From: Escherichia virus TH27
Direction: 5' to 3' (one strand)
Length of the DNA stretch: 52,344 nt
Sequence record: MT446401.1
This document shows, one piece after another, positions 474 to 48,504 of the stretch. Within the stretch, counting starts at the first letter, position 1. Each line of letters opens with the position of its first letter. A program made the position numbers and the translations under genes. Under the pieces are notes generated by a model. It saw nothing but the letters and a program-made list of their open reading frames with translations. It had not been told where the DNA came from and searched no databases.

Positions 474-501
474 TTGCAATGGTTGCATTTGGTGATATGA
501 T
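474..501 (+). promoter_or_regulatory. Putative sigma70-type promoter for the left early operon
   Basis: TTGCAA, 16-nt spacer, TG-a-TATGAT extended -10, about 30 nt upstream of the first gene. Confidence 0.35.
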
Positions 502-533: not shown

Positions 534-1046
534 ATGACTCAAGATGAAAACAAACCATCACTCGGTGACATCGTTCGCTACATGGTACTGGAAGCGCTGG
601 CGTCTGATGACGGTACATATGCTGTACCAGTCAGGATGATTCACAAGAAGCTTGGGGGCTATACTGATAGCGAAACCTGTGACTCAGATTTCAAATCAGG
701 CGGAAAGCATGTAGTGACTAAGCTCAAGGCGTCTTATGTATCAAACACTGCTAGCCGTATGCAGGAAGTTAAGGACGCAGACAAGCGAGCCAGGTTCTCA
801 ATGGTTGAAATGGATTTCGATGGTACTCCTGGTGTGTACTGCGCAAAAATCACAATGGTAGATGGAGCGGTAAAGGTTGGCTCCCGCTCAAAGACTAACA
901 ACCAGGTTGCAGAGAAGGCTGTGAGCGACTTCAAATCTCGCATACTCAAGCTGATGCCATCCGTGACCGAGTTCGAAGGCGATGAAATTACAGGAGCCAT
1001 CAAGGCTATCAAAATGTACCAAGACATGATTAAGGAGGCTAACTAA
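534..1046 (+). CDS. Hypothetical early protein (170 aa), possible winged-helix N-terminus
   Basis: ORF with RBS-like GAGGTAG upstream; first gene of left operon. Confidence 0.7.
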   Translation: MTQDENKPSLGDIVRYMVLEALASDDGTYAVPVRMIHKKLGGYTDSETCDSDFKSGGKHVVTKLKASYVSNTASRMQEVKDADKRARFSMVEMDFDGTPGVYCAKITMVDGAVKVGSRSKTNNQVAEKAVSDFKSRILKLMPSVTEFEGDEITGAIKAIKMYQDMIKEAN

Positions 1047-1579
1047 TGTTTGATTTCAACGATCCCAATCTGACCGATGACGAGATCGCAAAGGTCGCCA
1101 GTGAAAGTAACTTGACTCCACTGCGCGTAGCAATCAACGCGAACGGATACCGCCAATCATCCAGGTACTGGCGCTCCTTGAAAGAGCTTTCCTGCGTCAA
1201 TCTTGGCGAGGAGTGTAAGTCGGTGGCTTTAGCTATTCATCGGCAGGCAAAAAACGGAAAAGGCGTTACTGGAATCCGTTCGACATACGAAGCTATCAGG
1301 AAAGTAAAGCCATTTATTGGCCGATTTGGGTTAATGTCTGATCTTAAAGAGAGCATTCTACCTTCACTACAGGACGCAGGAATCATCTGCCGAATTGGAG
1401 ATAAGGTTTATATTCATCCATGGCTTGTGGGTGTTCCACACGTTGAGTTTAAGGCTTGGTTGAGTCAGCAAAATAAAGGCGACACCAAAAAGCAAACCAT
1501 CCATGGCTATGATGCCGATGAGGTGGAGAAGGCCATCCAGTTCTACCGGAAAGCGAAATCTCTCCTGAACGGTGAATAG
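1046..1579 (+). CDS. Truncated paralog (177 aa) of the 527-aa protein at 46851..48434: N-terminal about 45 aa plus C-terminal winged-helix-like segment, central region absent
   Basis: Shares MFDFN..LPPLRVAINANGYRQS and GKNGKGV.G.RS.YEA.RKVKPF...GDK.YI.P.L.G with the 527-aa protein; ATGA coupling to upstream gene. Confidence 0.8.
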   Translation: MFDFNDPNLTDDEIAKVASESNLTPLRVAINANGYRQSSRYWRSLKELSCVNLGEECKSVALAIHRQAKNGKGVTGIRSTYEAIRKVKPFIGRFGLMSDLKESILPSLQDAGIICRIGDKVYIHPWLVGVPHVEFKAWLSQQNKGDTKKQTIHGYDADEVEKAIQFYRKAKSLLNGE

Positions 1580-1619
1580 CACGAATTGCTAAACAATAAA
1601 TCGGGTAGTCAGCTATGAT
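1577..1619 (+). promoter_or_regulatory. Palindromic box TAGCACGAATTGCTAAA plus -10-like TATGAT in hairpin
   Basis: Box 1577..1593 overlaps stop TAG; 20-nt gap; hexamer 1614..1619 inside inverted repeat gggta/taccc. Confidence 0.5.
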
Positions 1620-1643
1620 TACCCTATCAACAACGAAGAGGAA

Positions 1644-1862
1644 ATGATTATGGATACTGGAATTTTACGCATTGACGATGTTCACTTTGACCAGGCTGAG
1701 GTCAGCGTCACGGTGCAAACCGTTCGCGGTAATGTTGTAAACCTGGACTTCGATCCTGACGATTACGGCGACTGTCAAACTCTGATGCAATACTCACCGG
1801 AGCAGGCCCGCAAATTAGCGGCGGCATTAATCCTGGCAGCGGAAGAGGCCGACAAGCAATGA
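1644..1862 (+). CDS. Small protein (72 aa), paralog of 2426..2656
   Basis: Shared DF.P..Y.D...Y.P.QAR.LA segment with 2426..2656; preceded by box/-10 module. Confidence 0.7.
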   Translation: MIMDTGILRIDDVHFDQAEVSVTVQTVRGNVVNLDFDPDDYGDCQTLMQYSPEQARKLAAALILAAEEADKQ

Positions 1863-2059
1863 GTAAATTCAGGATCGCATTGGTTGACACGACTACCGCC
1901 TTCGGTCATCCGGTCAAGTGGTACGCCATCCAAAAACGTGTAGCCTTGTTCTGGTGGGTTACGGTTGGACACGCCAGCCAGTTATCCCAGGATCGCTACT
2001 GGCTGCATAAGTCCGGAGCACCGCATCGCAAAGAGAAGGTATTGAGGATTGTTGAATGA
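1859..2059 (+). CDS. Hypothetical protein (66 aa)
   Basis: ORF with start overlapping upstream stop (ATGA). Confidence 0.5.
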   Translation: MSKFRIALVDTTTAFGHPVKWYAIQKRVALFWWVTVGHASQLSQDRYWLHKSGAPHRKEKVLRIVE

Positions 2060-2346
2060 AGAAACTAATTTTATTGGCGACCATGGCACTGGCTGGGTGC
2101 GATTTTGGAAGCACCCGAGTAGATTCAGAGGCTCGGCAGAAGATGCCAGTGAACGTAAACGATCGCGTCCAGGTTGTTAAGATTCAGGAGTTCAGGGATG
2201 AACTGGCATATGAGAACGTCAGAGCGATATACGTCATCACCGATAAGGACACTGGTCAGGAATACATCGGCTTAAGCGGTGTCGGCATCGTGGAAGTTGG
2301 TCGCCATGGTTGCGGCAAAGGATGCTCCAGAGAAGATGAGCGATAG
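2056..2346 (+). CDS. Putative lipoprotein (96 aa)
   Basis: N-terminal signal peptide with lipobox LAGC; stop TAG is first triplet of downstream box. Confidence 0.7.
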   Translation: MKKLILLATMALAGCDFGSTRVDSEARQKMPVNVNDRVQVVKIQEFRDELAYENVRAIYVITDKDTGQEYIGLSGVGIVEVGRHGCGKGCSREDER

Positions 2347-2386
2347 CACTTTTTGTTAAAACTGCCGTGAGTGCATTTGCTATAGT
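2344..2386 (+). promoter_or_regulatory. Palindromic box TAGCACTTTTTGTTAAA plus TG-c-TATAGT in hairpin
   Basis: Box 2344..2360; hexamer 2381..2386 in loop of gagtgca/tgcactc. Confidence 0.5.
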
Positions 2387-2425
2387 GCACTCATTGAAGT
2401 GAAACAATCAACTAAGGGGTAATTT

Positions 2426-2656
2426 ATGAGCACGACCGCCGTACGCATCGCTGACGACTCAGGCGAACAGGCCGAGGTAATGGTAAAGAAACTGCATAGC
2501 AGCGCCCAGGGCTTTGCATTCAAGGTGTGCGTTGACTTCAATCCTGAAGAGTATGTTGACGCATCAAGTTACATGGTGTACACGCCAGACCAGGCTCGAC
2601 AGTTGGCTGTGTATCTGATGGAAGCGGCCCACCGCGCTGAGAAGGGGGTTTTATGA
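2426..2656 (+). CDS. Small protein (76 aa), paralog of 1644..1862
   Basis: RBS AAGGGG upstream; sequence similarity to 1644..1862 product. Confidence 0.7.
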   Translation: MSTTAVRIADDSGEQAEVMVKKLHSSAQGFAFKVCVDFNPEEYVDASSYMVYTPDQARQLAVYLMEAAHRAEKGVL

Positions 2657-2859
2657 TTACCGATCGCAAGCGCTTCCAGGATATGGACGATGACGATTGC
2701 TGGATTGACACGATGACCAATAGCGATAACGTCACTGTCGAAATCGTTATTGACGACTACTCTGGAGCATTCCCAATGCAAGATCCGGCGACCGTCCGCG
2801 CAATGGGTGATCACTTAATAAAAATGGCTGACTACATGGAGCGCCACAATGAACAATGA
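2653..2859 (+). CDS. Small highly acidic protein (68 aa)
   Basis: ORF, ATGA coupling; Asp/Glu-rich (DMDDDDCWID...). Confidence 0.6.
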   Translation: MITDRKRFQDMDDDDCWIDTMTNSDNVTVEIVIDDYSGAFPMQDPATVRAMGDHLIKMADYMERHNEQ

Positions 2860-3067
2860 AGAAATGGTTAAGATCCGCATTATCAAGTCACCATATAGCG
2901 GAGTGGATAAAAGCAAGCTGCCAGTGGTAGCGATGGCCTGGAAATACCAGGAAGAAGGGCTTGAACCATTTTACATGGTTGACGCTGACTTCCTTCCGGC
3001 GCTCAGCAAGAATGGAATGGCTCCTGGCGATTGGCCCTTTGCAGGTGATGAGGTAGAGGTGCTATGA
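2849..3067 (+). CDS. Hypothetical protein (72 aa)
   Basis: ORF overlapping upstream gene end; same-strand operon context. Confidence 0.55.
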   Translation: MNNEEMVKIRIIKSPYSGVDKSKLPVVAMAWKYQEEGLEPFYMVDADFLPALSKNGMAPGDWPFAGDEVEVL

Positions 3068-3162
3068 AGTTCAAATTAGTTGACGTGCTGCAATTGCTTC
3101 TTGTCGGGTTATCCTGGGTGCTTTTGTTCCTGGTGATTGCCTTCCTGGCTACTATCAAATAA
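3064..3162 (+). CDS. Small hydrophobic peptide (32 aa), possible membrane peptide
   Basis: ATG overlaps upstream TGA (ATGA); MKFKLVDVLQLLLVGLSWVLLFLVIAFLATIK; below the 60-aa ORF track cutoff. Confidence 0.4.
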   Translation: MKFKLVDVLQLLLVGLSWVLLFLVIAFLATIK

Positions 3163-3174
3163 AGGTGAAATAAA

Positions 3175-3417
3175 ATGGTTTTCAATAAACAGACAATCTT
3201 TGATTTTATGGACGACGTGAACAAGGCTATTCAGGAGTTTGCCGTTGCAATGGAAGCGGTAATCATTAGCTACTCGGTCGAATACGGAAGGATTGATGTC
3301 CGGTGCTACCCTGCTAACGCCATAGCAGATGTGCATCCAGTGATGAGCATCTTGGTCGGTGATGCAAGTGAGCTTCGACGGATTACGGCTGGTGTGAGAA
3401 AGAGCACGAATTGCTAA
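3175..3417 (+). CDS. Hypothetical protein (80 aa)
   Basis: RBS AAAGGTGA upstream; C-terminal STNC-stop encoded by the palindromic box. Confidence 0.65.
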   Translation: MVFNKQTIFDFMDDVNKAIQEFAVAMEAVIISYSVEYGRIDVRCYPANAIADVHPVMSILVGDASELRRITAGVRKSTNC

Positions 3418-3444
3418 AACGATATTCTCCCTGACTGGTATACT
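3403..3444 (+). promoter_or_regulatory. Palindromic box AGCACGAATTGCTAAA plus TG-g-TATACT
   Basis: Box 3403..3418, 20-nt gap, hexamer 3439..3444. Confidence 0.5.
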
Positions 3445-3472
3445 TCTTTCATACCAACAAGGGAGATACGAA

Positions 3473-3661
3473 ATGACTAACTACACCACGATTTACACTC
3501 ACTGCGGCAAAGCATTCACGGCACTGGCTGAGGATATTGAGTATCTGCCCTGGCACCAGGTATGGAAGATGCACAAGATTACTTCCACTGGAACGCAGGA
3601 GTGGTTCTTGAGAAAGATTTACGTGGCGGAGGTCATTCACCACAACGAAAAATTCGAATAG
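3473..3661 (+). CDS. Hypothetical protein (62 aa)
   Basis: RBS GGGAGA upstream; stop TAG is first triplet of downstream box. Confidence 0.6.
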   Translation: MTNYTTIYTHCGKAFTALAEDIEYLPWHQVWKMHKITSTGTQEWFLRKIYVAEVIHHNEKFE

Positions 3662-3701
3662 CACTTTTTGTTAAACCTTCCGCAAGGCCATTTGATATAG
3701 T
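3659..3701 (+). promoter_or_regulatory. Palindromic box plus TG-a-TATAGT in hairpin
   Basis: Box 3659..3675; hexamer 3696..3701 in loop of aggcca/tggcct. Confidence 0.5.
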
Positions 3702-3741
3702 GGCCTTATTGAAGCAAAGCAACCAATCAGAGGATTTGCAG

Positions 3742-3945
3742 ATGTTTACTGAAAAAGAGTTTGAGCAGTTTTTCCGCCTGGTCAATATGTCAGGCAGCGC
3801 GGACCAGATGGATCGCATAAACAGCCGTCTTGAAATGCCAAAGTTCATCGAGGCAGTAGGCCGCAAGACGTGCGATAAGATGTGGCACTTAATTGAGCAT
3901 TACGGCGTAACACCAGCAACACTTAAATCGGAGCATATGAAATGA
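3742..3945 (+). CDS. Hypothetical protein (67 aa)
   Basis: Internal ATG of track ORF 3562..3945 chosen because it follows the box/-10 module and has RBS AGAGGA. Confidence 0.55.
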   Translation: MFTEKEFEQFFRLVNMSGSADQMDRINSRLEMPKFIEAVGRKTCDKMWHLIEHYGVTPATLKSEHMK

Positions 3946-4331
3946 AAGTACGTTTACTTAACCCTAGCATCTATGCAGATCCTGAATACTTCAAGCTGCA
4001 TCCGAAAGAGACTAGCCCTCGCGATCCTGGCTCTTACCCGATCGTTGTGGAAGGATTCATTGTTGAGCAGACTGAGCTTGAGAAGAAATACGGAATTGAG
4101 TCAACATTTAACTCAATCAAGGTTGGCGGCGATGAACTAGATCGCGTATTCAAAAGCTATTTCAGTGACGGACGCCAGATGAACTCAATCTACGGTAGCG
4201 CTGCGGTTCTCGGTTGGTGGAATCATGAAGGAGAGCCGAAATCATGGGAGCCAGTAGGGCCGTTCGATTTCTGGAACAAATTAAAGGCATCACGCGAAGT
4301 TGGCGAAACTGTAGGGAAGGGTTACTTATGA
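3942..4331 (+). CDS. Hypothetical protein (129 aa)
   Basis: ORF with ATGA coupling. Confidence 0.7.
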   Translation: MKVRLLNPSIYADPEYFKLHPKETSPRDPGSYPIVVEGFIVEQTELEKKYGIESTFNSIKVGGDELDRVFKSYFSDGRQMNSIYGSAAVLGWWNHEGEPKSWEPVGPFDFWNKLKASREVGETVGKGYL

Positions 4332-4507
4332 TTACTTTATGCATCGTGCTTTACATCCTTGGCGCACTTCCGGTTTACACTATTGCCGACGAGGTACGCA
4401 ATAGCGAGAACAAGCAATCTGACTTATTCATCATTGCTGCCGCTTGGCCTCTGGTCATTGCGTACGGCGTGGTGAGAAAAGCCTACCGTGCCTTGAAGGA
4501 GCAATGA
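4328..4507 (+). CDS. Small membrane protein (59 aa, two predicted TM segments)
   Basis: ATGA coupling to upstream gene; hydrophobic MITLCIVLYILGALPVY... and AAWPLVIAYGVV. Confidence 0.5.
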   Translation: MITLCIVLYILGALPVYTIADEVRNSENKQSDLFIIAAAWPLVIAYGVVRKAYRALKEQ

Positions 4508-4713
4508 TTATGATCCCGTTGAAGCCAATAGTTTTTATGCGTAATGGCATGTGGTTTGCCGTAGTTTGCGGCACTGGATACACTTATTCAAAAACCGCAG
4601 GTCGATGGTTTAAGGCTTTAAGCCAGGCGTCAGTATTCACTCATTTAGTAACAGCCATTCGCACAAGAACGGCATATCAGGTTAAGGGGTTAAAAAATGC
4701 AAGTCTACACTAA
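4504..4713 (+). CDS. Hypothetical protein (69 aa)
   Basis: ATG overlapping upstream stop; RBS GGAG upstream. Confidence 0.5.
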   Translation: MIMIPLKPIVFMRNGMWFAVVCGTGYTYSKTAGRWFKALSQASVFTHLVTAIRTRTAYQVKGLKNASLH

Positions 4714-4915
4714 CAGTAAAGGCATTGAATTTTGTGCGGTCGGCGATGTGGTCCTGCGAACTGGTGGCGGATACGGGATTATTAATATCTCAGGCATTAC
4801 GCAGGAACAGTTGGTAAAGGGTATCCAGGCTGGCATCTTTACCTATCACTCATCACTGACGGCTAAGCAGTATGTCACACTTGAAACTGCAATTCGCGCC
4901 GGATTCATCGAATAG
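4697..4915 (+). CDS. Hypothetical protein (72 aa)
   Basis: RBS AAGGGG upstream; stop TAG is first triplet of downstream box. Confidence 0.65.
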   Translation: MQVYTNSKGIEFCAVGDVVLRTGGGYGIINISGITQEQLVKGIQAGIFTYHSSLTAKQYVTLETAIRAGFIE

Positions 4916-4955
4916 CACTTTTTGTTAAAACTTGCTCGGAGACATTAGCTATAGT
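4913..4955 (+). promoter_or_regulatory. Palindromic box plus TATAGT in hairpin
   Basis: Box 4913..4929; hexamer 4950..4955 in loop of ggagaca/tgtctcc. Confidence 0.5.
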
Positions 4956-4996
4956 GTCTCCTGTCAAGTGAACACAAACCAACTGAGGTATCACAT

Positions 4997-5800
4997 ATGA
5001 ACAGCATCAACCGTTATATCCATGTGTCAGTGCCAACAAGCGTCAATATTCACGGCGTCGGAATGCAATCCTGCGACGATGGAGCATGGGTATCCTACGC
5101 AATGCATAAAAAAGAAATCGAGTCCTTACAGGCACGTTTAAAGGCCTTAGAATCGACTCAAAAACATCAAATTTCTGCACCGTCGATTATCGCTGACCAT
5201 GTTGAGCAGGCAATCAAAGAAGCTGTAGGTAAGCTGGTGCACGAAGCATGTGAGCAATTGTTCAAGGATTTGCCTAAGTACAATGGCGATCCGTGTCACA
5301 GCACTGTCGATGCATTCGTGAATGAGCTTGCGGCTGGCCAAGGGAAAACCGTCGTAGATGATGGCGCAAAGTTTGATTACCTGACGAAAGATTCCAAGTT
5401 CACTTTCGGTAGCAATTTCGGTGAAGGCAATGCGCTTACCATGTCAACCACGAAAATGGAACCGCGAAGCGGCGGTTACGGTTATAGCAATCGTCACGCA
5501 TTGGCGGTGGGTGAATGTGAATCAGCACGCGATCGCAAGATGGCGGTTTGCTACCATGTTGGAGGCAATGAGTTTATCAATGGTTGCGAGTACGCGTATG
5601 AAATTGATGAATGCGAACCAGGATGTGAGCCGCGACTTATTCAAATCACGCAAGATGCCTTCTGCTCTGGATTAAAAGGTGATTACCGTTGGGAAGCCAG
5701 GAGAATTGGTAAGGTCATGAATGCCAAGGCAACGCTCGGTGACGCATACGCAATCATAAATCCTGATGGTGGCGTGGTGGCTCAGTTCTATATCAAATAG
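4997..5800 (+). CDS. Hypothetical protein (267 aa)
   Basis: RBS GAGG upstream; stop TAG starts downstream box. Confidence 0.8.
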   Translation: MNSINRYIHVSVPTSVNIHGVGMQSCDDGAWVSYAMHKKEIESLQARLKALESTQKHQISAPSIIADHVEQAIKEAVGKLVHEACEQLFKDLPKYNGDPCHSTVDAFVNELAAGQGKTVVDDGAKFDYLTKDSKFTFGSNFGEGNALTMSTTKMEPRSGGYGYSNRHALAVGECESARDRKMAVCYHVGGNEFINGCEYAYEIDECEPGCEPRLIQITQDAFCSGLKGDYRWEARRIGKVMNAKATLGDAYAIINPDGGVVAQFYIK

Positions 5801-5840
5801 CACTTTTTGTTAAAAGGGGATTCATCCTGACTGGTATAAT
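5798..5840 (+). promoter_or_regulatory. Palindromic box plus TG-g-TATAAT in hairpin
   Basis: Box 5798..5814; hexamer 5835..5840 in ggggatt/aatcccc inverted repeat. Confidence 0.55.
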
Positions 5841-5872
5841 CCCCACACCAACCACACGAAAGGAAGTTAAAA

Positions 5873-6493
5873 ATGAACCAGCTTTACACCATGATTAAGC
5901 ATCACCTTGAAACGGTAGCAGTAAACAAGAAAGTTTACATCTTTGATTACGATGGCACTCTGTCAGACGGAACTCACCGCCTGCATAAGCTGCCGACCAA
6001 GGATTTACACCTCACTGAGTCATGGCTTGAATTTAACTCTCTGAGCAAGTTCGACACGCCATTCCAGGAAACGATTGACGTAATGAATGGCCTGTTTGCT
6101 TCCGGCGCTTTCATCATCGTGCTCACTGGTCGATCGGATGCAGTCGTTGAAGAATCAACGCAGTGGCTGTATGATGCGCGCGCCAATTACAACGTTCTGG
6201 TCATGCGCCAGGCTGATGATAACCGCAAGGATACGATCATCAAGGAAGAGTTTTTACGATACATTGGATTGCACCGCATCACCGCAGCGTGGGATGATAG
6301 CCCAAATGTTATTGCGCACTTCCGAAGCCTCGGCATCACTACCTATCAGGTGTGTGACTATGGCGATAAGCTCCACGCTGGCGTAGGATCGCATGGAGTT
6401 CAGCACAAAAATGAGTGCAAACACGAATGGGAATCATTCGATGATTATGGCGTCAAATGCCGAAAATGTGGAAAAATTGAGGAGATTGAGTAA
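5873..6493 (+). CDS. HAD-superfamily phosphatase (206 aa), polynucleotide 3'-phosphatase-like
   Basis: HAD motif I DxDGT (IFDYDGTLSDG) near N-terminus; RBS AAAGGAAG; immediately followed by kinase gene. Confidence 0.75.
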   Translation: MNQLYTMIKHHLETVAVNKKVYIFDYDGTLSDGTHRLHKLPTKDLHLTESWLEFNSLSKFDTPFQETIDVMNGLFASGAFIIVLTGRSDAVVEESTQWLYDARANYNVLVMRQADDNRKDTIIKEEFLRYIGLHRITAAWDDSPNVIAHFRSLGITTYQVCDYGDKLHAGVGSHGVQHKNECKHEWESFDDYGVKCRKCGKIEEIE

Positions 6494-7114
6494 ATGTCAA
6501 AGATTATCATTCTAAACGGCCCTGCTGGAGTAGGTAAAGACACTATCGGCAATGCACTGGTAGCAGATTACAACTGCATCCCTACCAGCTTCAAACGTCC
6601 GATGTTTGAGATTGCAGCATCCATCCTTGGGGCCAGGGCTTTTTCAAAGTTCATCACAGCATACGACGACCGCGATCAGAAAGAGCAGCCTCAGAGCTTT
6701 CTCGGTGGCAAGACCTGTCGTGAGTTCATGATCTGGATTAGCGAAACAGTGGTCAAGCCGCTTTTTGGCAATCAGCAGTTCGGCAAATTGATGAGCGAAC
6801 ATATCCAGCTGTGTGATGAAGGCTTCTGCTTTGTGTGTACTGATGGCGGCTTCCCTGATGAAGTGATCAGGCTCGTTGAAGATGGTCACAATGTTACCCT
6901 GGTCCGCCTGTTCATGGATGGCAAGACTTTCGCGGGAGATAGCCGTAATTACATCCGCATCAAGGAATCGCACTTCCCTGATTACAAGAAATATAACGAG
7001 CATGATGTGCATCTGGTAAATGGTGATGTTGATGATGGCGTCCTTAAAGTAGTTCGCGCTTGCTTGGTTAGTCCTTCAATGGATGATGATTGGGCCGACG
7101 ATATTCCTTGGTAA
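6494..7114 (+). CDS. P-loop kinase (206 aa), polynucleotide or nucleotide kinase-like, with acidic DDDWADDIPW C-terminus
   Basis: Walker A GPAGVGKDT at residues 9-17; start 1 nt after phosphatase stop; SSB-tail-like C-terminus. Confidence 0.75.
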   Translation: MSKIIILNGPAGVGKDTIGNALVADYNCIPTSFKRPMFEIAASILGARAFSKFITAYDDRDQKEQPQSFLGGKTCREFMIWISETVVKPLFGNQQFGKLMSEHIQLCDEGFCFVCTDGGFPDEVIRLVEDGHNVTLVRLFMDGKTFAGDSRNYIRIKESHFPDYKKYNEHDVHLVNGDVDDGVLKVVRACLVSPSMDDDWADDIPW

Positions 7115-7115
7115 A

Positions 7116-7158
7116 TAGCACGAATTGCTAAACCCGCTCCGGCGGGTTTTGTTATAGT
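7116..7158 (+). promoter_or_regulatory. Palindromic box TAGCACGAATTGCTAAA plus TG-t-TATAGT
   Basis: Box 7116..7132, 20-nt gap, hexamer 7153..7158. Confidence 0.5.
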
Positions 7159-7187
7159 TAGTTCACACCAAACGAGAGGAAAGCAAA

Positions 7188-7346
7188 ATGATTACTATCA
7201 ACCTGTCAGATAAGCAAGCCGTCATCCTTAAGCAACTACTGGCGACTCAGACTATGCAGTGCACAGCCGATGAGTTCTCTGAGATGGTCAAAGAGGTTCG
7301 CACTCAGATCAATAATCAACAATTCGACGAAAACGAAGGGGAATAA
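7188..7346 (+). CDS. Small protein (52 aa)
   Basis: RBS GAGAGGAAAG upstream; below ORF-track cutoff; downstream of box/-10 module. Confidence 0.5.
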   Translation: MITINLSDKQAVILKQLLATQTMQCTADEFSEMVKEVRTQINNQQFDENEGE

Positions 7347-7348
7347 CC

Positions 7349-7747
7349 ATGAAATTACGTTGCGTTAAAATACATCCAGGGTTAGCGCCGCTGTTCGAAG
7401 ATCACTTTCAGGTTGGTCATGTGTACGAAGCTAAACGCAGGCCAAATCGTCACCTCAACGTGGCTGATGTTATTGATGTCGATAACGGCCTTACCTGGTA
7501 CGCCATCCAGAAAGGCAGTAAGTTTAACCTGAATCTCGCAAGCGGCCCAGCAGTCACTTTCGTGGTAGTAAAGGGTCCGCGCCGATTAGTAGTGACGGAA
7601 AAACGTGTAACTAACGTGTTCAATGACAAGCGTAAATTCCGCCGTATGTGTCGCCAGTATGGCAAGTTACGATTCACTGAGCCTGGGATGTTCTGCTTTA
7701 TCGCCTTCGCGGCAATGAAAAAGAATGCACGCAATCACCAGCGATAG
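7349..7747 (+). CDS. Hypothetical basic protein (132 aa)
   Basis: ORF; stop TAG is first triplet of downstream box. Confidence 0.7.
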   Translation: MKLRCVKIHPGLAPLFEDHFQVGHVYEAKRRPNRHLNVADVIDVDNGLTWYAIQKGSKFNLNLASGPAVTFVVVKGPRRLVVTEKRVTNVFNDKRKFRRMCRQYGKLRFTEPGMFCFIAFAAMKKNARNHQR

Positions 7748-7787
7748 CACTTTTTGTTAAAACTCAGAATCGGGGTGGCTGTATAGT
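7745..7787 (+). promoter_or_regulatory. Palindromic box plus TATAGT in hairpin, followed by CATCGAAACGAA leader
   Basis: Box 7745..7761; hexamer 7782..7787 in ggggt/acccc; leader motif 7793..7804. Confidence 0.5.
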
Positions 7788-7817
7788 TACCCCATCGAAA
7801 CGAACGAGGAAGCAGAA

Positions 7818-15597: not shown

Positions 15598-15644
15598 TTT
15601 CCAGAGAACGACATAAGCGCTTAACATAAAAAGCTGTTGCACGC

Positions 15645-15664
15645 TTAACAAAAAGTGCTATTAT
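15645..15664. promoter_or_regulatory. Palindromic box in inverted orientation overlapping TG-c-TATTAT, upstream of major capsid gene
   Basis: ttaacaaaaagtgcta then tgctattat; followed by hairpin gccgtga/tcacggc. Confidence 0.4.
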
Positions 15665-30676: not shown

Positions 30677-30716
30677 TTTTGAATCCTTATTAAGTATGTT
30701 TCGTTTCGATGGAGTA

Positions 30717-30756
30717 ACTATACACCAACCATTAATTTAGTTTTAGCAATTCGTGC
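30717..30756 (-). promoter_or_regulatory. Palindromic box plus TATAGT (- strand) with CATCGAAACGAA leader
   Basis: Box 30742..30756, hexamer complement 30717..30722, leader 30700..30711; overlaps end of Rha-like gene. Confidence 0.5.
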
Positions 30757-31361
30757 GTTTTACCCGTCAGTGCGATAATTGTATCTTTCGATACCTCCAG
30801 CTTCATTTGTAATCCTTCGCATTGAGCCTGATATGAATACACGTTTTCCTGCGACTCATAATATCTATTGTTTTCGATTCGAATATTAGCCACCAAATCG
30901 TCGATTTGAGAGCCAGAACCTTCAGACTCTAGAATCTTATCAAGTACCTTGCTTTGCGCGTAGTACAGGTCTTCTATGCGGTGCTGCGCTGAAATGGCTC
31001 TATACTTCTGTTGGTGCTCATCAATAACCTCGTCAATTGAAACCATTTTGGAGTTGTGAGATTTAAGAACATTAACTTCATGCTCAAGCGACTTTATTTT
31101 CTGGATCATCTTCATTCTGATTTTTGCGCTGTATTTTGCAACAAGGCATAGCGTGTGATCCTTATCCAGAATGGCTACGTTATGCATCTTTCCTTTATGA
31201 TATTCTTGCTCCTCAAATTGAGGAACAAGGTTTTCTCCATATAAATCAACATACATAGCATTGACATCCCTTATAATGTTGTCGTGACGAACTCCTGTAA
31301 TCTTGGCAATCTCAAGGCTGGTCATGGTCATTTCTTCGTTTGTGATGGTTAATTCGTTCAT
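30732..31361 (-). CDS. Rha-family phage regulatory protein (209 aa)
   Basis: N-terminal [19 protein letters not shown] segment characteristic of Rha-type regulators; RBS GGAG. Confidence 0.7.
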
Positions 31362-31903
31362 TTTTCAATCTCCATTAGTGATCGCGTGATTGCGATGCGT
31401 GTATTTTGCACACTTTAATCTGATTGTCTTTAGCTATTCGTGCTTTTTGGTGTCAAATATGCAAATGCAACGATATACGCGTAACCGATGTAACTCGATG
31501 TATACAATCTAATCCTCGGAAAATTGTATACGCCCTGTTACGCCGATTTACGCTATAGTTACATTAAAATATCTATATATATCAACCTTTTACTCTTATT
31601 ATTATTATTATATATATTACTGTGTATATCGTGTAACTACTTCTATAGAGTGTTCCGATTATAAATTTCTAATATGGTTATTTATACAGTATTTAATCAC
31701 AAATACACCAATGCACCCTCAGCGAAAAATGATATACACGATATACACACTGTTTACATTAAGCTATAGCTGGGCTGGATAGCCATTTTATGTAACTAAC
31801 GCCATTGCATACACGCAATTACAAATATCTACACGTAACCACTTGACTAACGCAACCAAGCGTGTATAGTTAGCCACATCAACAACGAACGAGGATTAAA
31901 GAG
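31362..31903. other. 540-bp AT-rich intergenic region with TATAC(A/G)C-type repeats between divergent operons
   Basis: No ORF; repeated atacac/atacgc units, tandem gatatacac x2 at 31730..31749, (TTA)5 at 31596..31610. Confidence 0.7.
31843..31870 (+). promoter_or_regulatory. sigma70-type promoter (TTGACT-16-TATAGT)
   Basis: TTGACT 31843..31848, 16-nt spacer, TATAGT 31865..31870. Confidence 0.55.
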
Positions 31904-33030: not shown

Positions 33031-33393
33031 ATGATCTCATTTAACTATGTGAAGCTTCTAGCTCATAGGGTTATATGGGAAATGCACTACGGACCTATAC
33101 CAGAAGGTTACGAGATAGACCACATTAACGGAATAAGAAGTGATAACAGGATTGAAAACCTAAGACTTGTAACTAGAGCCATCAACAATAAAAATAAAAA
33201 GATGCAGTCAAATAACACATCAGGATTCACAGGTGTTGTTTTTGTTAAGCAAAGATGTAAATGGAACGCAAGGGTAAAGGTAAATGGAGTGCAGAAAAGC
33301 CTTGGTAGTTTCAATACAGCAATTGAAGCGAAAGAGGCAAGGGAAAGATACATCTCAATGAATGGTGATTTTACTTTAAGGCATGGCAGGTAG
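33031..33393 (+). CDS. HNH-AP2 homing endonuclease (120 aa from ATG; in-frame N-terminal extension back to 32926 has no ATG/GTG/TTG)
   Basis: HRVIWEMHYGPIPEGYEIDHINGIRSDNRIENLR motif; upstream in-frame KYIDGNLYWIKSG matches N-termini of the HNH genes at 44399 and 49326. Confidence 0.7.
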   Translation: MISFNYVKLLAHRVIWEMHYGPIPEGYEIDHINGIRSDNRIENLRLVTRAINNKNKKMQSNNTSGFTGVVFVKQRCKWNARVKVNGVQKSLGSFNTAIEAKEARERYISMNGDFTLRHGR

Positions 33394-33432
33394 CACTTTT
33401 TGCTAAACAAGAATGCGGTGATTTGCTATAAT
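33391..33432 (+). promoter_or_regulatory. Palindromic box TAGCACTTTTTGCTAAA plus TG-c-TATAAT in hairpin
   Basis: Box 33391..33407; hexamer 33427..33432 inside cggtgat/atcaccg. Confidence 0.55.
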
Positions 33433-33469
33433 CACCGTAAATCAAACGAAGTAAACAAAGGTATATATA

Positions 33470-36860: not shown

Positions 36861-36889
36861 TAGCACGATTTGCTAAATGCAGTATACCA
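36861..36889 (-). promoter_or_regulatory. Palindromic box with adjacent TG-g-TATACT (- strand), upstream of tail fiber gene
   Basis: Box 36861..36877; -10-like complement at 36881..36889; here the box lies between -10 and gene. Confidence 0.4.
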
Positions 36890-37873: not shown

Positions 37874-37925
37874 TGCTTTAACTCCAATAAAAAAGGTTGC
37901 ACCAATTATGGCACAACCTTGATTG

Positions 37926-38399
37926 TCATTCTTTAGCTTTTCGTGCTGCTTCGTTTGCTGCTTTAATTTTTCGCCACGATCGACACTCTGGCTTTGTGGC
38001 TAGTTCAGCCTCAGTGACCACGCGCAGCATGTGACGCTTTTTGCACCGCAGAGTAAGTGGCTTACCGTTCCCGTCGAATTGCAGATCCGGTCGGCAGAAT
38101 GTAGCGCGGAACCCTTCGCCAGTTCGCTTATATCGGTTGTGCGCCAGTTGAGCGCCGCGCGCCGACATCATTCCACGCTTAAACCATTCCTCAACTGCCT
38201 GACGAGTAACCTTTAATTGTTTTGCCATGTTCGCCTTGCTGCCGTAGAACTCAAATACAATATCAAGTCGCGCTCTTAATCCGGCCTTTACTTCATCCTT
38301 TAGAACATAGTAACCTGACGGTCGCTTACGCTGCTTCTTATCTTCTGTGCGGATAGTTCCGTTGTTACCGTTAAGAGTACGCTTATCAGTTGCATTCAT
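37926..38399 (-). CDS. HTH DNA-binding protein (157 aa), candidate transcription regulator
   Basis: Helix-turn-helix-like segment ANMAKQLKVTRQAVEEWFKRG; basic; divergent from helicase promoter. Confidence 0.65.
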   Translation of the reverse strand: MNATDKRTLNGNNGTIRTEDKKQRKRPSGYYVLKDEVKAGLRARLDIVFEFYGSKANMAKQLKVTRQAVEEWFKRGMMSARGAQLAHNRYKRTGEGFRATFCRPDLQFDGNGKPLTLRCKKRHMLRVVTEAELATKPECRSWRKIKAANEAARKAKE

Positions 38400-38412
38400 T
38401 TTATCACCTCAA

Positions 38413-38454
38413 TAGCACTTTTTGTTAAACATTGGTTTCGATGGTTGCTATTAT
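38413..38454 (+). promoter_or_regulatory. Palindromic box plus TG-c-TATTAT in divergent promoter region
   Basis: Box 38413..38429; hexamer 38449..38454. Confidence 0.5.
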
Positions 38455-38491
38455 AACGTCAATCGAACGAACATGAAAGGCATTTAATACT

Positions 38492-40594: not shown

Positions 40595-41019
40595 TTACAG
40601 ACAAAGGCGACTACCTGGAGTATTACACTCCAGACAAATCGGATACATGGACCGAAAAAAAACACCAGGTCGATTGCGTGACCTGGACTAATGTAAATCA
40701 CTCTTACCTTCTGTTCTGGCACACCGTTAATGAGGGCAAGAAAACTATGCATTCGGCGCTGGTTGACGCTCAGAGCGGATTATTGAAGGGTGTTAGTGAC
40801 TTTGTATTCCTTCTCGGCCCGTTCGGTAAATATCCTTTCGGGGCCATAGAATTAAAGCGGGTGAATAAGAGTGGGAAAGGCAAAGCATCACCAGTCAGCA
40901 AGGAGCAGAAAGATTTCCTTCGTCGCGTCCGTGAGCGTGGCGGGTTCGCGGCGGTGGCGTACGGCCAGGAGGAATATAAGAAGGCCGTTGCAGACATGCT
41001 GAATAGCACGAATTGCTAA
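40591..41019 (+). CDS. VRR-NUC domain nuclease (142 aa)
   Basis: GVSDFVFL...GAIELKR matches VRR-NUC (PD-(D/E)xK) signature; ends in box-encoded STNC-stop. Confidence 0.7.
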   Translation: MITDKGDYLEYYTPDKSDTWTEKKHQVDCVTWTNVNHSYLLFWHTVNEGKKTMHSALVDAQSGLLKGVSDFVFLLGPFGKYPFGAIELKRVNKSGKGKASPVSKEQKDFLRRVRERGGFAAVAYGQEEYKKAVADMLNSTNC

Positions 41020-41046
41020 AGACGAATCGGTGAAGTGGTGTATTAT
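41004..41046 (+). promoter_or_regulatory. Palindromic box plus TATTAT in hairpin, followed by CATCGAAACGAA
   Basis: Box 41004..41020; hexamer 41041..41046 in gtgaagtg/cacttcat; leader 41052..41063. Confidence 0.5.
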
Positions 41047-41085
41047 CACTTCATCGAAACGAAGTAACAAACAAAGGAAATCAAA

Positions 41086-42089: not shown

Positions 42090-42320
42090 ATGAGCAGTGT
42101 ACAAATTAATTTAACCGACAAATGTCAGTATCTTTTATTCCGCGCCATCGTTTGTGAGGTGTTAACGAAGGCAGGGTTTAAGGGTGACGCCTGGGAGTTC
42201 TCAGATTTGGATATGTCATTCGAAGAAGTGCAGGATCAGCCTATTAACACATGGGCTAAAGCAATACGAAAGGATATGGAAGACTATAAGCGAGATTGCC
42301 CCGAAGATTTCGCAGAATAG
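42090..42320 (+). CDS. Small acidic protein (76 aa)
   Basis: ORF; stop TAG is first triplet of downstream box. Confidence 0.6.
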   Translation: MSSVQINLTDKCQYLLFRAIVCEVLTKAGFKGDAWEFSDLDMSFEEVQDQPINTWAKAIRKDMEDYKRDCPEDFAE

Positions 42321-42360
42321 CACTAATTGCTAAACATACCCGCCACCGCGCGGGTATACT
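42318..42360 (+). promoter_or_regulatory. Palindromic box TAGCACTAATTGCTAAA plus TATACT after hairpin
   Basis: Box 42318..42334; hairpin acccgc/gcgggt; hexamer 42355..42360. Confidence 0.5.
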
Positions 42361-42392
42361 TCCATCATACCAACTATAGACGAGGAATCACC

Positions 42393-44326: not shown

Positions 44327-44340
44327 TAGCATTTTATGAC

Positions 44341-44361
44341 AAAGCCCTTCGGGGCTTTTTT
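44341..44361 (+). terminator. Rho-independent terminator
   Basis: aaagcccc-ttcg-ggggcttttttt. Confidence 0.75.
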
Positions 44362-44398
44362 GATATATTAAATTTATCGAAACCAGGAGGTTAGAAAA

Positions 44399-44881: not shown

Positions 44882-44883
44882 AA

Positions 44884-44927
44884 TAGCACGAATTGCCTAA
44901 CACTATAGCGTCGAAAGGCGCTATATT
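44884..44927 (+). promoter_or_regulatory. Palindromic box (TAGCACGAATTGCCTAA) plus -10-like TATATT in hairpin
   Basis: Box 44884..44900; inverted repeat ctatagcg/cgctatat. Confidence 0.45.
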
Positions 44928-44954
44928 CATATCTCACTTACAGAGGATTCAATC

Positions 44955-48434: not shown

Positions 48435-48487
48435 TAAAAAACTCCTTAGTTGGTGCGCTAATGTTAACGCACCTATGGTAAAACCGC

Positions 48488-48503
48488 TTGCCAAAAAATG
48501 CTA
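48488..48503 (-). promoter_or_regulatory. Variant palindromic box (TAGCATTTTTTGGCAA) after stop of upstream gene
   Basis: Read on - strand directly after stop at 48505; followed by hairpin ggtgcg/cgcacc. Confidence 0.35.
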
Positions 48504-48504
48504 C

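What the first reader, a model, noticed from the sequence alone, without database searches (positions are those of the whole stretch)
1577..7787. Recurrent stop-codon-overlapping palindromic box at fixed distance from a -10 element inside a variable hairpin
A 17-bp near-palindromic box (consensus TAGCAC-N5-TTGCTAAA, half-sites TAGCA/TGCTA) recurs about 20 times. On the + strand it starts at 1577, 2344, 3403, 3659, 4913, 5798, 7116, 7745, 33391, 38413, 41004, 42318 and 44884; on the - strand it lies at 30742..30756, 31429..31444, 48923..48939, 50485..50501 and 51853..51869; atypical copies are at 15645..15660, 36861..36877 and 48488..48503. In most copies the box supplies or abuts the upstream stop codon, either TAG as the first triplet of the box or TAA within GCTAAA, which gives several proteins the ending STNC. 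A -10-like hexamer (TATAGT, TATAAT or TATACT, often preceded by TG) follows 19-21 nt after the box. That leaves 22 nt between the TTG of the box and the -10, which is too long for a sigma70 -35 element. The box is therefore centred near -41 from the likely transcription start, the position used by class II activators. In at least nine copies the -10 sits in the loop or 3' arm of an inverted repeat whose stem sequence differs between copies (gagtgca/tgcactc, ggagaca/tgtctcc, ggggatt/aatcccc, cggtgat/atcaccg and others), so the structure is conserved rather than the stem sequence. The structural-gene promoters at 9601 and 16705 lack the box. Two readings are possible: an activator-dependent promoter family controlled by a phage DNA-binding protein (candidates: the HTH protein at 37926..38399, the first early protein at 534..1046, the Rha-like protein at 30732..31361), or intercistronic RNA elements read in hairpin form.
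Basis: seen in the sequence. Interest (0 to 1): 0.85.

Follow-up and report, generated by a model that had tools for sequence, protein, structure and literature searches.

The report
Host stress-activator promoters in T1-like phage
The repeated box in this T1-like phage matches the binding site of the host's MarA/SoxS/Rob stress regulators, placed exactly as in the E. coli micF promoter and fused to an RNA hairpin, so about 21 phage promoters probably borrow a host antibiotic-stress activator, which would explain a repeat whose function was published as an open question.

Summary
The window is a T1-like phage (Drexlerviridae). It carries 21 co-directional intergenic modules. Each has the box A-TAGCAC-N3-TTG(C/T)TAAA, a 19-21 nt spacer (usually 20), a -10 hexamer, a C-rich discriminator and a likely A start.

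The box was already described in phage TLS (German et al. 2024) as a 21-nt repeat of unknown function.

New here: the box matches the published marbox, the site of the host activators MarA, SoxS, Rob and RamA. The window has 17 exact matches against about 1 in shuffles. The box is in forward orientation, centred near -40/-41, and its spacing to the -10 is identical to E. coli micF. These are therefore class II Mar/Sox/Rob-type promoters.

The conserved positions are asymmetric. The phage helix-turn-helix regulator's predicted recognition helix varies between genera while the box does not. No AraC-type protein was found in the phage. A host activator is therefore more likely than a phage one; this is inferred, not shown.

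The variable hairpin is real (mean z -2.9). It is selected in sense-strand RNA and resembles the terminator part of T4-type PeSL cassettes.

No binding, start-site or termination data exist for any of this.

The parts
1576..1626 (+). Module: marbox ATAGCACGAATTGCTAAACA (TAG = stop of ORF 1046-1579), 20-nt spacer, -10 TATGAT 1614-1619, predicted +1 at 1626. Type A hairpin with the -10 in its loop.
2343..2393 (+). Module: marbox ATAGCACTTTTTGTTAAAAC (TAG = stop of ORF 2056-2346), 20 nt, TGC-TATAGT 2381-2386. Type A hairpin GAGTGCA/TGCACTC.
3401..3451 (+). Module: marbox AGAGCACGAATTGCTAAAAC (TAA inside the box ends ORF 3175-3417, ...STNC), 20 nt, TGG-TATACT 3439-3444. No stable hairpin.
3658..3708 (+). 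Module: marbox, 20 nt, TGA-TATAGT 3696-3701. Type A hairpin AAGGCCA/TGGCCTT. The spacer-to-start segment (hairpin, -10, discriminator) recurs unchanged in T1 and Klebsiella phage Call.
4912..4962 (+). Module: marbox, 20 nt, TATAGT 4950-4955. Type A hairpin GGAGACA/TGTCTCC.
5797..5847 (+). Module: marbox, 20 nt, TGG-TATAAT 5835-5840. Hairpin GGGGATT/AATCCCC. Drives the polynucleotide kinase and kinase genes.
7115..7165 (+). Module: marbox, 20 nt, TGT-TATAGT 7153-7158. Type B terminator-like hairpin CCCGCTCCGGCGGG followed by a T-run inside the spacer.
7744..7794 (+). Module: marbox, 20 nt, TATAGT 7782-7787, +1 A at 7794, then TCGAAACGAA. Type A hairpin GGGGT/ACCCC.
33390..33439 (+). Module upstream of the Erf-like recombinase gene: 19 nt, TGC-TATAAT 33427-33432.
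38412..38461 (+). Module upstream of the helicase gene: 19 nt, TGC-TATTAT 38449-38454. The marbox lies 12 nt from the start codon of the divergent regulator gene. The two divergent -10 hexamers overlap.
41003..41053 (+). Module: TAA inside the box ends ORF 40591-41019; 20 nt, TATTAT 41041-41046; type A hairpin.
42317..42367 (+). Module: 20 nt, TATACT 42355-42360; type B hairpin ACCCGC...GCGGGT.
44326..44376 (+).
44883..44934 (+). Module with a degenerate B-site (GCCTAA): 21 nt, TATATT 44922-44927. Lies upstream of the lysis region.
51819..51870 (-). Module on the - strand: 21 nt, TATCAT 51831-51826.
50452..50502 (-). Module on the - strand: 20 nt, CATAAT 50464-50459; type B hairpin.
48890..48940 (-). 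Module on the - strand: 20 nt, TATATT 48902-48897; type B terminator GCCCTTCGGGGC.
48454..48504 (-). Degenerate module (GTAGCATTTTTTGGCAAG): 20 nt, TAACAT; type A hairpin. Lies upstream of the DUF3987-type helicase gene.
37898..37949 (-). Hairpin with the -10 in its loop, followed by T6. Lies upstream of the primase gene.
31396..31446 (-). Weak module upstream of the Rha-like gene (AAAGCACGAATAGCTAAA, -10 CAAAAT).
30710..30759 (-). Module inside the 3' end of the Rha-like gene: 19 nt, TATAGT 30722-30717.
15644..15660 (-). Orphan marbox in the structural module, with no -10 at 19-21 nt. Conserved in T1 and TLS.
36861..36877 (+). Orphan marbox between two - strand genes, followed by a bidirectional terminator. 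Conserved in T1 and Rtp.
474..501 (+). Contrast: canonical sigma-70 promoter TTGCAA-16-TATGAT without a box, driving the first two early genes.
31843..31870 (+). Contrast: TTGACT-16-TATAGT with the same discriminator and initial transcribed sequence as the modules, but a true -35 in place of a marbox.
37926..38399 (-). Cro/YdaS-like helix-turn-helix 'transcriptional regulator', a core Drexlerviridae gene. It is the candidate reader of the box in the rival explanation.

Best explanation
Each copy is a compact terminator-promoter cassette.

**Promoter half.** It is a sigma-70 promoter of the class II MarA/SoxS/Rob type.
- A near-consensus 20-bp marbox (A-site GCAC, B-site YTAAA) sits in forward orientation at about -50 to -31.
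- In that position it replaces the -35 element.
- A monomer of the host's MarA-family activators binds there. Rob is the most likely one in unstressed cells, because it is made constitutively. RamA would serve in Klebsiella.
- The bound activator recruits RNA polymerase through sigma region 4 and the alpha C-terminal domain to the -10 hexamer 20 nt downstream.
- About half of the copies also carry an extended -10 (TGn).
- Transcription would start at the conserved A, 7 nt after the hexamer.

**Hairpin half.** The hairpin lies between the marbox and the start site, so it is not part of the transcript made from its own promoter. It folds in RNA that reads through from the upstream gene. There it ends or protects that transcript, as a terminator, attenuator or decay barrier.

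**Compactness.** The box also closes two of the three reading frames (TAG and TAA). This makes the cassette a portable unit that flanks small gene blocks and serves as a recombination linker.

**Shown:** the sequence anatomy, the statistics, the match to published consensus sequences and to micF, the strand bias of the hairpin, and mosaic breakpoints at modules.

**Inferred:** that a host activator binds and activates, where transcription starts, and what the hairpin does.
For: **1. Match to published marbox patterns, applied unchanged.**
- GCAnnWWnTGnnAAA (PMC12052159): 17 exact matches in the window against 1.03 +/- 1.0 in 300 shuffles.
- GCAHWWWWTGYYAAA (PMC6900184): 9 against 0.06.
- AYnGCACnnWnnRYYAAA (recalled from memory): 13 against 0.09.
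- Other Drexlerviridae give 12-20 exact matches per genome (T1, TLS, Rtp, Klebsiella phage Call, Pantoea phage AAS23). An unrelated Vibrio phage gives 1.

**2. Positions not forced by the search pattern also fit the marbox.**
- A at position 1: 70 of 77.
- T (a pyrimidine) at position 2: 68 of 77.
- C at position 7: 74 of 77.
- Pyrimidine at position 14: C 43, T 29.
- T at position 15: 71 of 77.

**3. Geometry equals the archetypal class II promoter.**
- In E. coli micF (fetched) the marbox ACAGCACTGAATGTCAAAAC ends its AAA 20 nt before the -10 TAGAAT.
- In the phages, 64 of 100 boxes have the hexamer at exactly 20 nt.
- The published centre for micF is -41 to -41.5, in forward orientation (PMC9638938; PMC8811837).
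- With +1 at the conserved A, the phage G and A of GCAC fall at -47 and -45. Those are the bases Rob contacts in the micF complex (PMC9178005).

**4. No usable -35.**
- The spacer carries no sequence information.
- A standard -35/-10 scan shows no enrichment and finds none of the modules as box-plus--10 promoters; one chance-level hit overlaps the -10 of module 1576.
- The TLS authors likewise found only 3 canonical promoters.
- A sister promoter at 31843-31870 has the same -10, discriminator and initial transcribed sequence, but a real TTGACT at 16 nt in place of a marbox.

**5. Asymmetry.**
- With a symmetric selection rule (83 sites), C follows TAGCA in 72 sites while T precedes TGCTA in 75.
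- AA flanks both sides of the box.
- The G of the left half is present in 82 sites, but its mirror C in only 51.

**6. A host reader is more likely than a phage reader.**
- No AraC-type protein was found in the phage.
- The Cro-like regulator's predicted recognition helix varies between genera, while the box is identical.
- The module also occurs in T4-like RB43-group phages.
- Rob is described as constitutively expressed at a high level.

**7. Hairpin.**
- Mean z-score is -2.86.
- Seven of 9 pairs show changes on both sides.
- The sense strand folds better in 64 of 76 modules, p = 1.3e-9, with 73 G-U pairs against 29 on the antisense strand.
- Twenty-six of 77 hairpins are terminator-like, with the T-rich -10 region as their tail.
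- T4-type PeSLs have the same layout, and one of their stem-loops terminated transcription in vivo (PMC2839356).

**8. Mosaic boundaries.** Fourteen of 48 alignment end-points against three related phages fall within 10 nt of a module, although modules make up about 8% of the region.
Against: - There are no binding, start-site or expression data for any T1-like phage. I found none in the papers I could search.
- Rob is largely held inactive until induced, and MarA and SoxS are scarce without stress. A lytic phage that relied on them for about 20 promoters would be taking a risk.
- From my own knowledge, T1-resistance screens recover receptor genes rather than rob, marA or soxS. Redundancy among the three could hide an effect.
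- About 45% of modules have a full TGn extended -10 (35 of 77). Those may work without any activator.
- The class II position is also where lambda cI activates PRM, so geometry alone does not exclude a phage helix-turn-helix dimer.
- The phage regulator is expressed from one of the few canonical promoters (TLS P57). Its promoter and 5' UTR overlap a marbox promoter. That would suit an autoregulatory phage switch.
- Type A hairpins (40 of 77) have no U-tract, so termination by them is doubtful.
Confidence: 0.62

Rival explanations
1. A phage-encoded activator reads the box. The Cro/YdaS-like helix-turn-helix regulator (37926-38399), or another early protein, would bind the pseudo-palindrome TAGCA-N5-TGCTA centred at -42 as a dimer. 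It would then activate these promoters as lambda cI does at PRM, giving an early-to-middle switch. The resemblance to the marbox would be coincidental, or it would reflect competition with host factors.
For: - The half-sites are 10 bp apart and centred at -42, which suits a helix-turn-helix dimer.
- The regulator is a core Drexlerviridae gene, found in 824 records.
- It is driven by one of the few canonical promoters (TLS P57).
- In all six phages a box sits 11-13 nt from the regulator's start codon, and the two divergent -10 hexamers overlap. That is an arrangement typical of autoregulated activators.
Against: - The conserved positions are not two-fold symmetric.
- Every asymmetric position fits the marbox.
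- The predicted recognition helix varies between genera (TRQAVEEW, SNQTVQGW, NLKTVWGW, SIQVVQQW, SKQTINAW), while the box is invariant.
- In the Pantoea phage the right half-site decays (TGGTA, TGACA, TGATA) while GCAC and AAA persist.
- The module occurs in RB43. The 70 kb of RB43 that I checked has no homologue of the regulator.
- Thirty records sampled evenly from the 824 regulator hits are all 44-53 kb phages.
Confidence: 0.2
2. The promoters need no activator. They would be extended -10 promoters, and the box would act only as an UP-like contact for the alpha subunit, as a translation stop, or as a homology patch for recombination between cassettes.
For: - G at position -14 occurs in 62 of 77 modules, and a full TG in 35 of 77.
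- T- and A-tracts lie inside the box.
- Breakpoints are enriched at modules.
- The TLS authors suggested an UP element.
Against: - The invariant G, C, A, C and G positions are not features of the A/T-rich UP element.
- A recombination patch would not need a fixed 20-nt distance to the -10, nor conservation restricted to the marbox-specific positions.
- Half of the modules lack TG.
Confidence: 0.08
3. The box acts as a roadblock ('stoperator', as in mycobacteriophage L5) or as an RNA element. It would form a small hairpin UAGCA/UG(C/U)UA that contains the stop codon, rather than serving as a promoter element.
For: - The distribution is oriented and intergenic, as for stoperators.
- The C/T variation in the box keeps pairing through G-U.
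Against: - The distance to the -10 hexamer is fixed.
- C/T at that position is also what the marbox consensus expects (pyrimidine at position 14).
- Self-complementarity is lost in the Pantoea phage copies.
- A 5-bp A/U-rich stem is very weak.
- These phages are virulent and have no known repressor.
Confidence: 0.05

Closest known systems
E. coli micF promoter and other class II MarA/SoxS/Rob (RamA) promoters
   Same: - A 20-bp asymmetric marbox with A-site GCAC and B-site (C/T)AAA.
- Forward orientation, overlapping the -35 position, centred at about -41.
- 20 nt between the AAA and the -10 hexamer.
- No consensus -35.
   Different: - The phage copies are near-consensus, whereas the chromosomal marboxes seen here (micF) depart from the consensus at several positions.
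- The phage has 12-20 per 50 kb.
- They are fused to an upstream stop codon and to an RNA hairpin in the spacer.
- Binding by MarA, SoxS or Rob has not been tested.
PeSLs (promoter-early stem-loops) of T4-type phages (Arbiol et al. 2010, PMC2839356; Comeau et al. 2014, PMC4122927)
   Same: [quoted passage not shown]
- The stem-loop, with G-T pairs, lies between the upstream promoter element and the -10, or overlaps the -10.
- The cassettes flank small genes of unknown function and mark insertion, deletion and replacement boundaries.
   Different: - PeSLs have a consensus -35 and an A/T-rich upstream region. Here the -35 is replaced by a marbox.
- Terminator activity has been shown for a PeSL stem-loop but not for these hairpins.
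The 21-nt direct repeat of phage TLS, also seen in T1, Rtp and Rogue1 (German et al. 2024, PMC11447400)
   Same: It is the same sequence, aaATAGCACnnnTTGnTAAAA. It is intergenic, co-directional with transcription, and about 76 nt upstream of start codons.
   Different: That paper lists the repeats separately from promoters and terminators. It does not link them to a downstream -10, a hairpin or the marbox. It names their function as an open question, offering stoperator, enhancer-binding site or UP element as ideas.
Lambda cI at OR2 activating PRM (established knowledge)
   Same: A helix-turn-helix protein bound at about -42 contacts sigma region 4. This is the model behind the rival explanation.
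   Different: Lambda operators are two-fold symmetric and change together with the repressor's specificity. Here the site is asymmetric and invariant while the phage regulator's helix varies.
T4 middle promoters (MotA box with AsiA; established knowledge)
   Same: A phage promoter family in which the -35 is replaced by an activator box (TGCTT-like) upstream of a sigma-70 -10.
   Different: The MotA box is centred at -30 and is read by phage proteins. No MotA or AsiA homologues were seen in this window.

Membership tests
Class II MarA/SoxS/Rob-dependent promoter | An asymmetric marbox matching the published consensus (GCAnnWWnTGnnAAA; A-site GCAC, B-site YAAA) | tested here: met
   There are 17 exact matches against 1.0 expected. 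Positions not forced by the search also fit.
Class II MarA/SoxS/Rob-dependent promoter | Forward orientation, overlapping the -35 position, centre between -36 and -55 (about -41) | tested here: met
   All 21 modules are forward. The centre is about -40 with the predicted start site. The start site itself is predicted, not mapped.
Class II MarA/SoxS/Rob-dependent promoter | Marbox-to--10 spacing as in the archetype micF | tested here: met
   micF has 20 nt. The phages have 20 nt in 64 of 100 boxes, 19 in 8 and 21 in 2.
Class II MarA/SoxS/Rob-dependent promoter | Poor or absent -35 hexamer at 16-18 nt | tested here: met
   The spacer carries no sequence information, and the position 17 nt upstream of the -10 reads AAAACn, as in micF. 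The consensus scan finds none of the modules as box-plus--10 promoters; one chance-level hit overlaps the -10 of module 1576.
Class II MarA/SoxS/Rob-dependent promoter | Bound by a MarA, SoxS or Rob monomer, with transcription that depends on the activator | not testable with these tools
   This needs gel-shift or footprinting assays, in vitro transcription, or mutant hosts.
PeSL-type composite terminator-promoter cassette | [quoted passage not shown] | tested here: met
PeSL-type composite terminator-promoter cassette | A consensus sigma-70 -35 with an A/T-rich upstream region | tested here: not met
   The -35 is replaced by a marbox 22 nt from the -10.
PeSL-type composite terminator-promoter cassette | The stem-loop terminates or attenuates upstream transcription | not testable with these tools
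   Twenty-six of 77 hairpins are terminator-like, with a T-rich tail. Forty of 77 have no U-tract.
PeSL-type composite terminator-promoter cassette | Sits at insertion, deletion or replacement boundaries between related phages | tested here: met
   Fourteen of 48 alignment end-points lie at modules, against about 8% expected. ETEP102 lacks window 2418-4911 and has a hybrid module at the junction. The end-points are not independent of one another.
T1-family 21-nt direct repeat (German et al. 2024) | Consensus aaATAGCACnnnTTGnTAAAA, intergenic, co-directional with transcription, about 76 nt upstream of start codons | tested here: met
Symmetric operator of a dimeric helix-turn-helix regulator | Two-fold symmetry of the conserved positions | tested here: not met
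   The centre and both flanks are asymmetric.
Symmetric operator of a dimeric helix-turn-helix regulator | The site changes together with the regulator's recognition helix | tested here: not met
   The predicted helix varies between genera while the box is invariant.
UP element | An A/T-rich tract at -59 to -38 with no invariant G or C | tested here: not met
   GCAC and the G of TTG are invariant or nearly so.

The most novel reading that the evidence does not exclude
Drexlerviridae (T1, TLS, Rtp, the Klebsiella Weberviruses and relatives) have handed nearly all of their non-structural transcription to the host's MarA/SoxS/Rob/RamA antibiotic-stress activators. They do so through 12-20 consensus class II marbox promoters per genome. 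The host's Mar, Sox, Rob or RamA state (bile, salicylate, oxidants, or multidrug-resistant mutants that over-produce these factors) would then set the level of phage early gene expression. Replicating phage DNA would also soak up these regulators.
Probability: 0.5. Interest if true: 0.8.

Novelty: new variant of a known kind. Interest (0 to 1): 0.7.

Why it matters
- It gives a concrete, cheaply testable answer to a question that the T1/TLS literature lists as open: what the 21-nt repeats do, and where the missing promoters are.
- If confirmed, it would be, as far as I could find, the first case of a whole virulent-phage family using a host stress-regulon activator as its main promoter specificity factor.
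- It would link phage gene expression to regulators that drive clinical multidrug resistance (MarA, SoxS, Rob, RamA). That matters for Klebsiella and E. coli phage therapy, where Drexlerviridae are common.
- It extends the PeSL idea of portable terminator-promoter cassettes beyond T4-type phages. The same cassette is shared between T1-like and RB43-like phages.

Tried and rejected
It gives only chance matches. I corrected it to N3.
- **Box TTGCTA as a -35.** The spacing is 22 nt, and no -35 lies at 16-18 nt.
- **Cruciform extrusion shortening the spacer.** The arithmetic does not work: a type B stem would leave about 4 nt, and a type A stem contains the -10 itself.
- **A phage-encoded MarA-like protein.**
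  - tblastn with MarA and SoxS (sequences recalled from memory) gave a best E-value of 0.2.
  - Pfam scans of 92 ORFs of at least 85 aa (420 aa or shorter) and of 45 early ORFs gave no HTH_18 or HTH_AraC hit.
  - In the first scan 19 weak families were not listed.
- **Sequence search of solved structures for the first two early proteins and the regulator.** Nothing useful came back.
- **Fis, IHF, CRP, FNR and lambda cII (TTGC-N6-TTGC) sites.** I compared them by eye; their registers and consensus sequences do not fit.
- **DNA-level hairpin or protein-bound inverted repeat.** Rejected because of the strand asymmetry and the G-U pairs.
- **RNase III site.** The stems, at 6-13 bp, are too short.
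- **The Vibrio phage fetched as a non-enteric relative.** It turned out not to be T1-like, so it is only a weak negative control.
- **Literature searches.** I found no transcriptome or start-site map for T1-like phages, and no paper linking marboxes to phages.
- **RB43.** Only 70 of its 180 kb were checked for regulator homologues.

Full report
**What the window is.** The left 8 kb of the window matches T1-like coliphages (50EP, P817, ESCO41, ETEP102) at 87-93% identity, in patches. The two closest relatives are classified as Drexlerviridae, genus Nouzillyvirus. Gene order is the same as in phage T1.

**Observation check.** The real box is TAGCAC-N3-TTG(C/T)TAAA.
- It has 14 exact copies.
- It has 30 copies with up to 3 mismatches, against 9.3 +/- 2.8 in shuffles.
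- With context, I count 21 complete modules, 14 on the + strand and 7 on the - strand. Each is followed by a ribosome-binding site and a start codon on the same strand.
- There are also two orphan boxes.

**What was already known.** German et al. 2024 (PMC11447400) describe this same element in phage TLS.
- It is a 21-nt direct repeat, aaATAGCACnnnTTGnTAAAA.
- TLS has 18 intergenic copies, co-directional with transcription and about 76 nt upstream of start codons. The repeat is also present in T1, Rtp and Rogue1.
- The authors found only three canonical sigma-70 promoters in TLS.
- They suggested stoperators, enhancer-binding sites or UP elements, and listed the repeat's function as an unanswered question.
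- Their supplementary table lists the repeats apart from promoters and terminators, and does not link them to a downstream -10.

**Anatomy from many copies.** I fetched T1, TLS, Rtp, Klebsiella phage Call (Webervirus) and Pantoea phage AAS23.
- Of 100 exact boxes in the six phages, a TAnnnT hexamer lies exactly 20 nt after the box in 64, at 19 nt in 8 and at 21 nt in 2. The background is 0-8 per other offset.
- I made a logo of 77 modules. It shows:
  - the box;
  - a spacer with no sequence information;
  - G two bases before the hexamer in 62 of 77 modules, with a full TG in 35 of 77;
  - the hexamer itself (T65 A77 T68 A53 A40/G25 T76);
  - a C-rich discriminator;
  - C then A at 6 and 7 nt after the hexamer (53 and 67 of 77), which is the likely start site;
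  - then TCGAAACGAA.
- A standard -35/-10 scan shows no enrichment (15 hits against 15.9 expected) and finds none of the modules as box-plus--10 promoters; one chance-level hit overlaps the -10 of module 1576.

**Identification as a marbox.** The box matches the published binding site of the monomeric AraC-family activators MarA, SoxS and Rob (RamA in Klebsiella).
- Applied unchanged, GCAnnWWnTGnnAAA (PMC12052159) has 17 exact matches in the window against 1.03 +/- 1.0 in 300 shuffles.
- GCAHWWWWTGYYAAA (PMC6900184) has 9 against 0.06.
- The classical AYnGCACnnWnnRYYAAA, which I quote from memory of Martin et al. 1999, has 13 against 0.09.
- The other Drexlerviridae have 12-20 exact matches each. 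An unrelated Vibrio phage has 1.
- Positions that the search pattern did not force also behave as the marbox predicts: A at position 1, T at 2, C at 7, C or T at 14 and T at 15.

**Geometry.** Class II Mar/Sox/Rob promoters have a forward marbox overlapping the -35 position, centred at -41 to -41.5 at micF (PMC9638938; PMC8811837).
- I fetched the E. coli micF promoter. Its marbox is ACAGCACTGAATGTCAAAAC, and the AAA ends 20 nt before the -10 TAGAAT. That is the same spacing as in the phage.
- With the start site at the conserved A, the phage G and A of GCAC fall at -47 and -45. Those are the bases Rob contacts in the Rob-micF complex (PMC9178005).
TTG is part of the marbox, not a -35.
- A sister promoter at 31843-31870 has the same -10, discriminator and initial transcribed sequence, but a true TTGACT at 16 nt and no marbox. 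That fits a marbox standing in for the -35.

**Host reader or phage reader?** The class II position is also where a helix-turn-helix dimer such as lambda cI activates, so I tested symmetry directly.
- I selected 83 sites with a symmetric rule (TAGCA-N5-TGCTA). The positions that rule leaves free are asymmetric:
  - C follows the left half in 72 sites, while T precedes the right half in 75;
  - AA flanks both sides;
  - the left G is present in 82 sites, but its mirror C in only 51.
- The phage 'transcriptional regulator' (37926-38399) is Cro/YdaS-like, not AraC-like.
- It is 51-63% identical to its counterparts in four of the five comparison phages (89% to Rtp's). Its predicted recognition helix varies (TRQAVEEW, SNQTVQGW, NLKTVWGW, SIQVVQQW, SKQTINAW), while the box is identical in all six phages.
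- No AraC-type protein was found by tblastn or by two Pfam scans.
- In the Pantoea phage the right half-site decays, but GCAC and AAA persist.
- The module also occurs in T4-like RB43-group phages. The 70 kb of RB43 that I checked has no homologue of the T1-family regulator.
- Rob is described as constitutively expressed at a high level.

These points favour a host MarA-family activator, but none of them is a binding experiment. The rival keeps real weight for two reasons. The regulator is made from one of the few canonical promoters. Its promoter and 5' UTR also overlap a marbox promoter, in an arrangement conserved across all six phages.

**The hairpin.** I folded the 36 nt from the end of the box to just past the start site.
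- Mean z-score is -2.86, and 82% of modules are below -1.64.
- There are two forms:
  - Type A, 40 of 77: the -10 lies in the loop and the discriminator forms the 3' arm. No U-tract follows.
  - Type B, 26 of 77: a G+C-rich stem lies inside the spacer, with the T-rich -10 region as its tail. This form looks like a terminator.
- Stems differ between copies through changes on both sides in 7 of 9 pairs. That set was chosen by its predicted fold, so the percentage paired is biased.
- An unbiased test compares the two strands. The sense strand folds better than the antisense strand in 64 of 76 modules, by a mean of 2.7 kcal/mol (p = 1.3e-9), with 73 G-U pairs against 29.
- The structure is therefore selected in sense RNA. 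Because it lies upstream of the module's own start site, that RNA must be read-through from the upstream gene.

**Closest architecture.** T4-type PeSLs have the same layout.
- Their stem-loop, with G-T pairs, lies between the promoter elements or over the -10.
- One PeSL stem-loop terminated transcription in vivo.
- The cassettes mediate modular gene shuffling (PMC2839356; PMC4122927).

The T1-family modules differ in having a marbox instead of a -35. Consistent with a linker role, 14 of 48 alignment end-points against three related phages lie within 10 nt of a module, although modules make up about 8% of the sequence. For example, ETEP102 lacks window 2418-4911 and has a hybrid module at the junction.

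**Model and confidence.**
- *Shown:* the repeat and its statistics, the fixed spacing, the match to marbox consensus sequences and to micF, the asymmetry, the hairpin and its strand bias, and breakpoints at modules.
- *Inferred:* that these are active promoters starting at the conserved A (very likely); that MarA-family host activators bind them (likely); that this binding matters during infection (moderately likely); and that the hairpins end or stabilise upstream transcripts (plausible, and best supported for type B).

**Novelty.** Within the papers I could search, nothing links this repeat, or any phage promoter family, to marboxes.

Noticed in passing
window 31440-31800: A 360-nt non-coding, A/T-rich region lies between the Rha-like gene and the recE-like gene. 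It carries iteron-like repeats ACGATATAC(A/G)C in both orientations, including a perfect 15-nt inverted pair at 31621-31635 and 31735-31749, plus (TTA)n and (TA)n tracts. A similar (TTA)n tract lies at 238-262. It may be an origin of replication or a cluster of regulator-binding sites.
   Followed up: partly
window 15644-15660 (-) and 36861-36877 (+): Two orphan marboxes have no -10 at 19-21 nt, and each lies antisense to the flanking genes. Both are conserved at the same places in related phages: the first in T1 and TLS, the second in T1 and Rtp. Their function is unexplained.
   Followed up: partly
L011 9042 and 10204; L012 37173 (phage RB43): T1-type marbox modules occur in the T4-like RB43 group (RB43, Lw1, GAP161, Klebsiella Roth22 and VAC13, Citrof4). 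The cassette therefore moves between phage families. Two of the RB43 copies have a 31-nt rather than 20-nt distance to the -10, which is one helical turn more.
   Followed up: partly
window 38400-38491: The divergent regulator and helicase promoters have overlapping -10 hexamers on opposite strands. The marbox lies in the regulator's 5' UTR, 12 nt from its start codon. This arrangement is conserved in six phages and suggests mutually exclusive promoter use.
   Followed up: partly
all modules, e.g. window 7794-7805: A conserved initial transcribed sequence, A-TCGAAACGAA, follows a C-rich discriminator. An alternative family reads ATTGAAG...AACCAATCAGAGGA. Their function is unknown; they could aid promoter escape, enhance translation or affect RNA stability.
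   Followed up: no
window 1046-1579: The second early protein (177 aa, no Pfam family) matches the C-terminal part of a helicase family, PHROG 2373 (E = 5e-21). It could be a free-standing DNA-binding domain related to the phage's own DUF3987-type helicase.
   Followed up: no
window 9564-9609: A terminator hairpin is followed directly by TGGTATAAT, upstream of the small terminase gene. This is the same terminator-then-extended--10 layout as the type B modules, but without a marbox.
   Followed up: no
one search hit list: About 20 records named 'Campylobacter phage' (roughly 50 kb or fragments) carry T1-like modules and genes. These are probably E. coli T1-like contaminants deposited under the wrong host name.
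   Followed up: no
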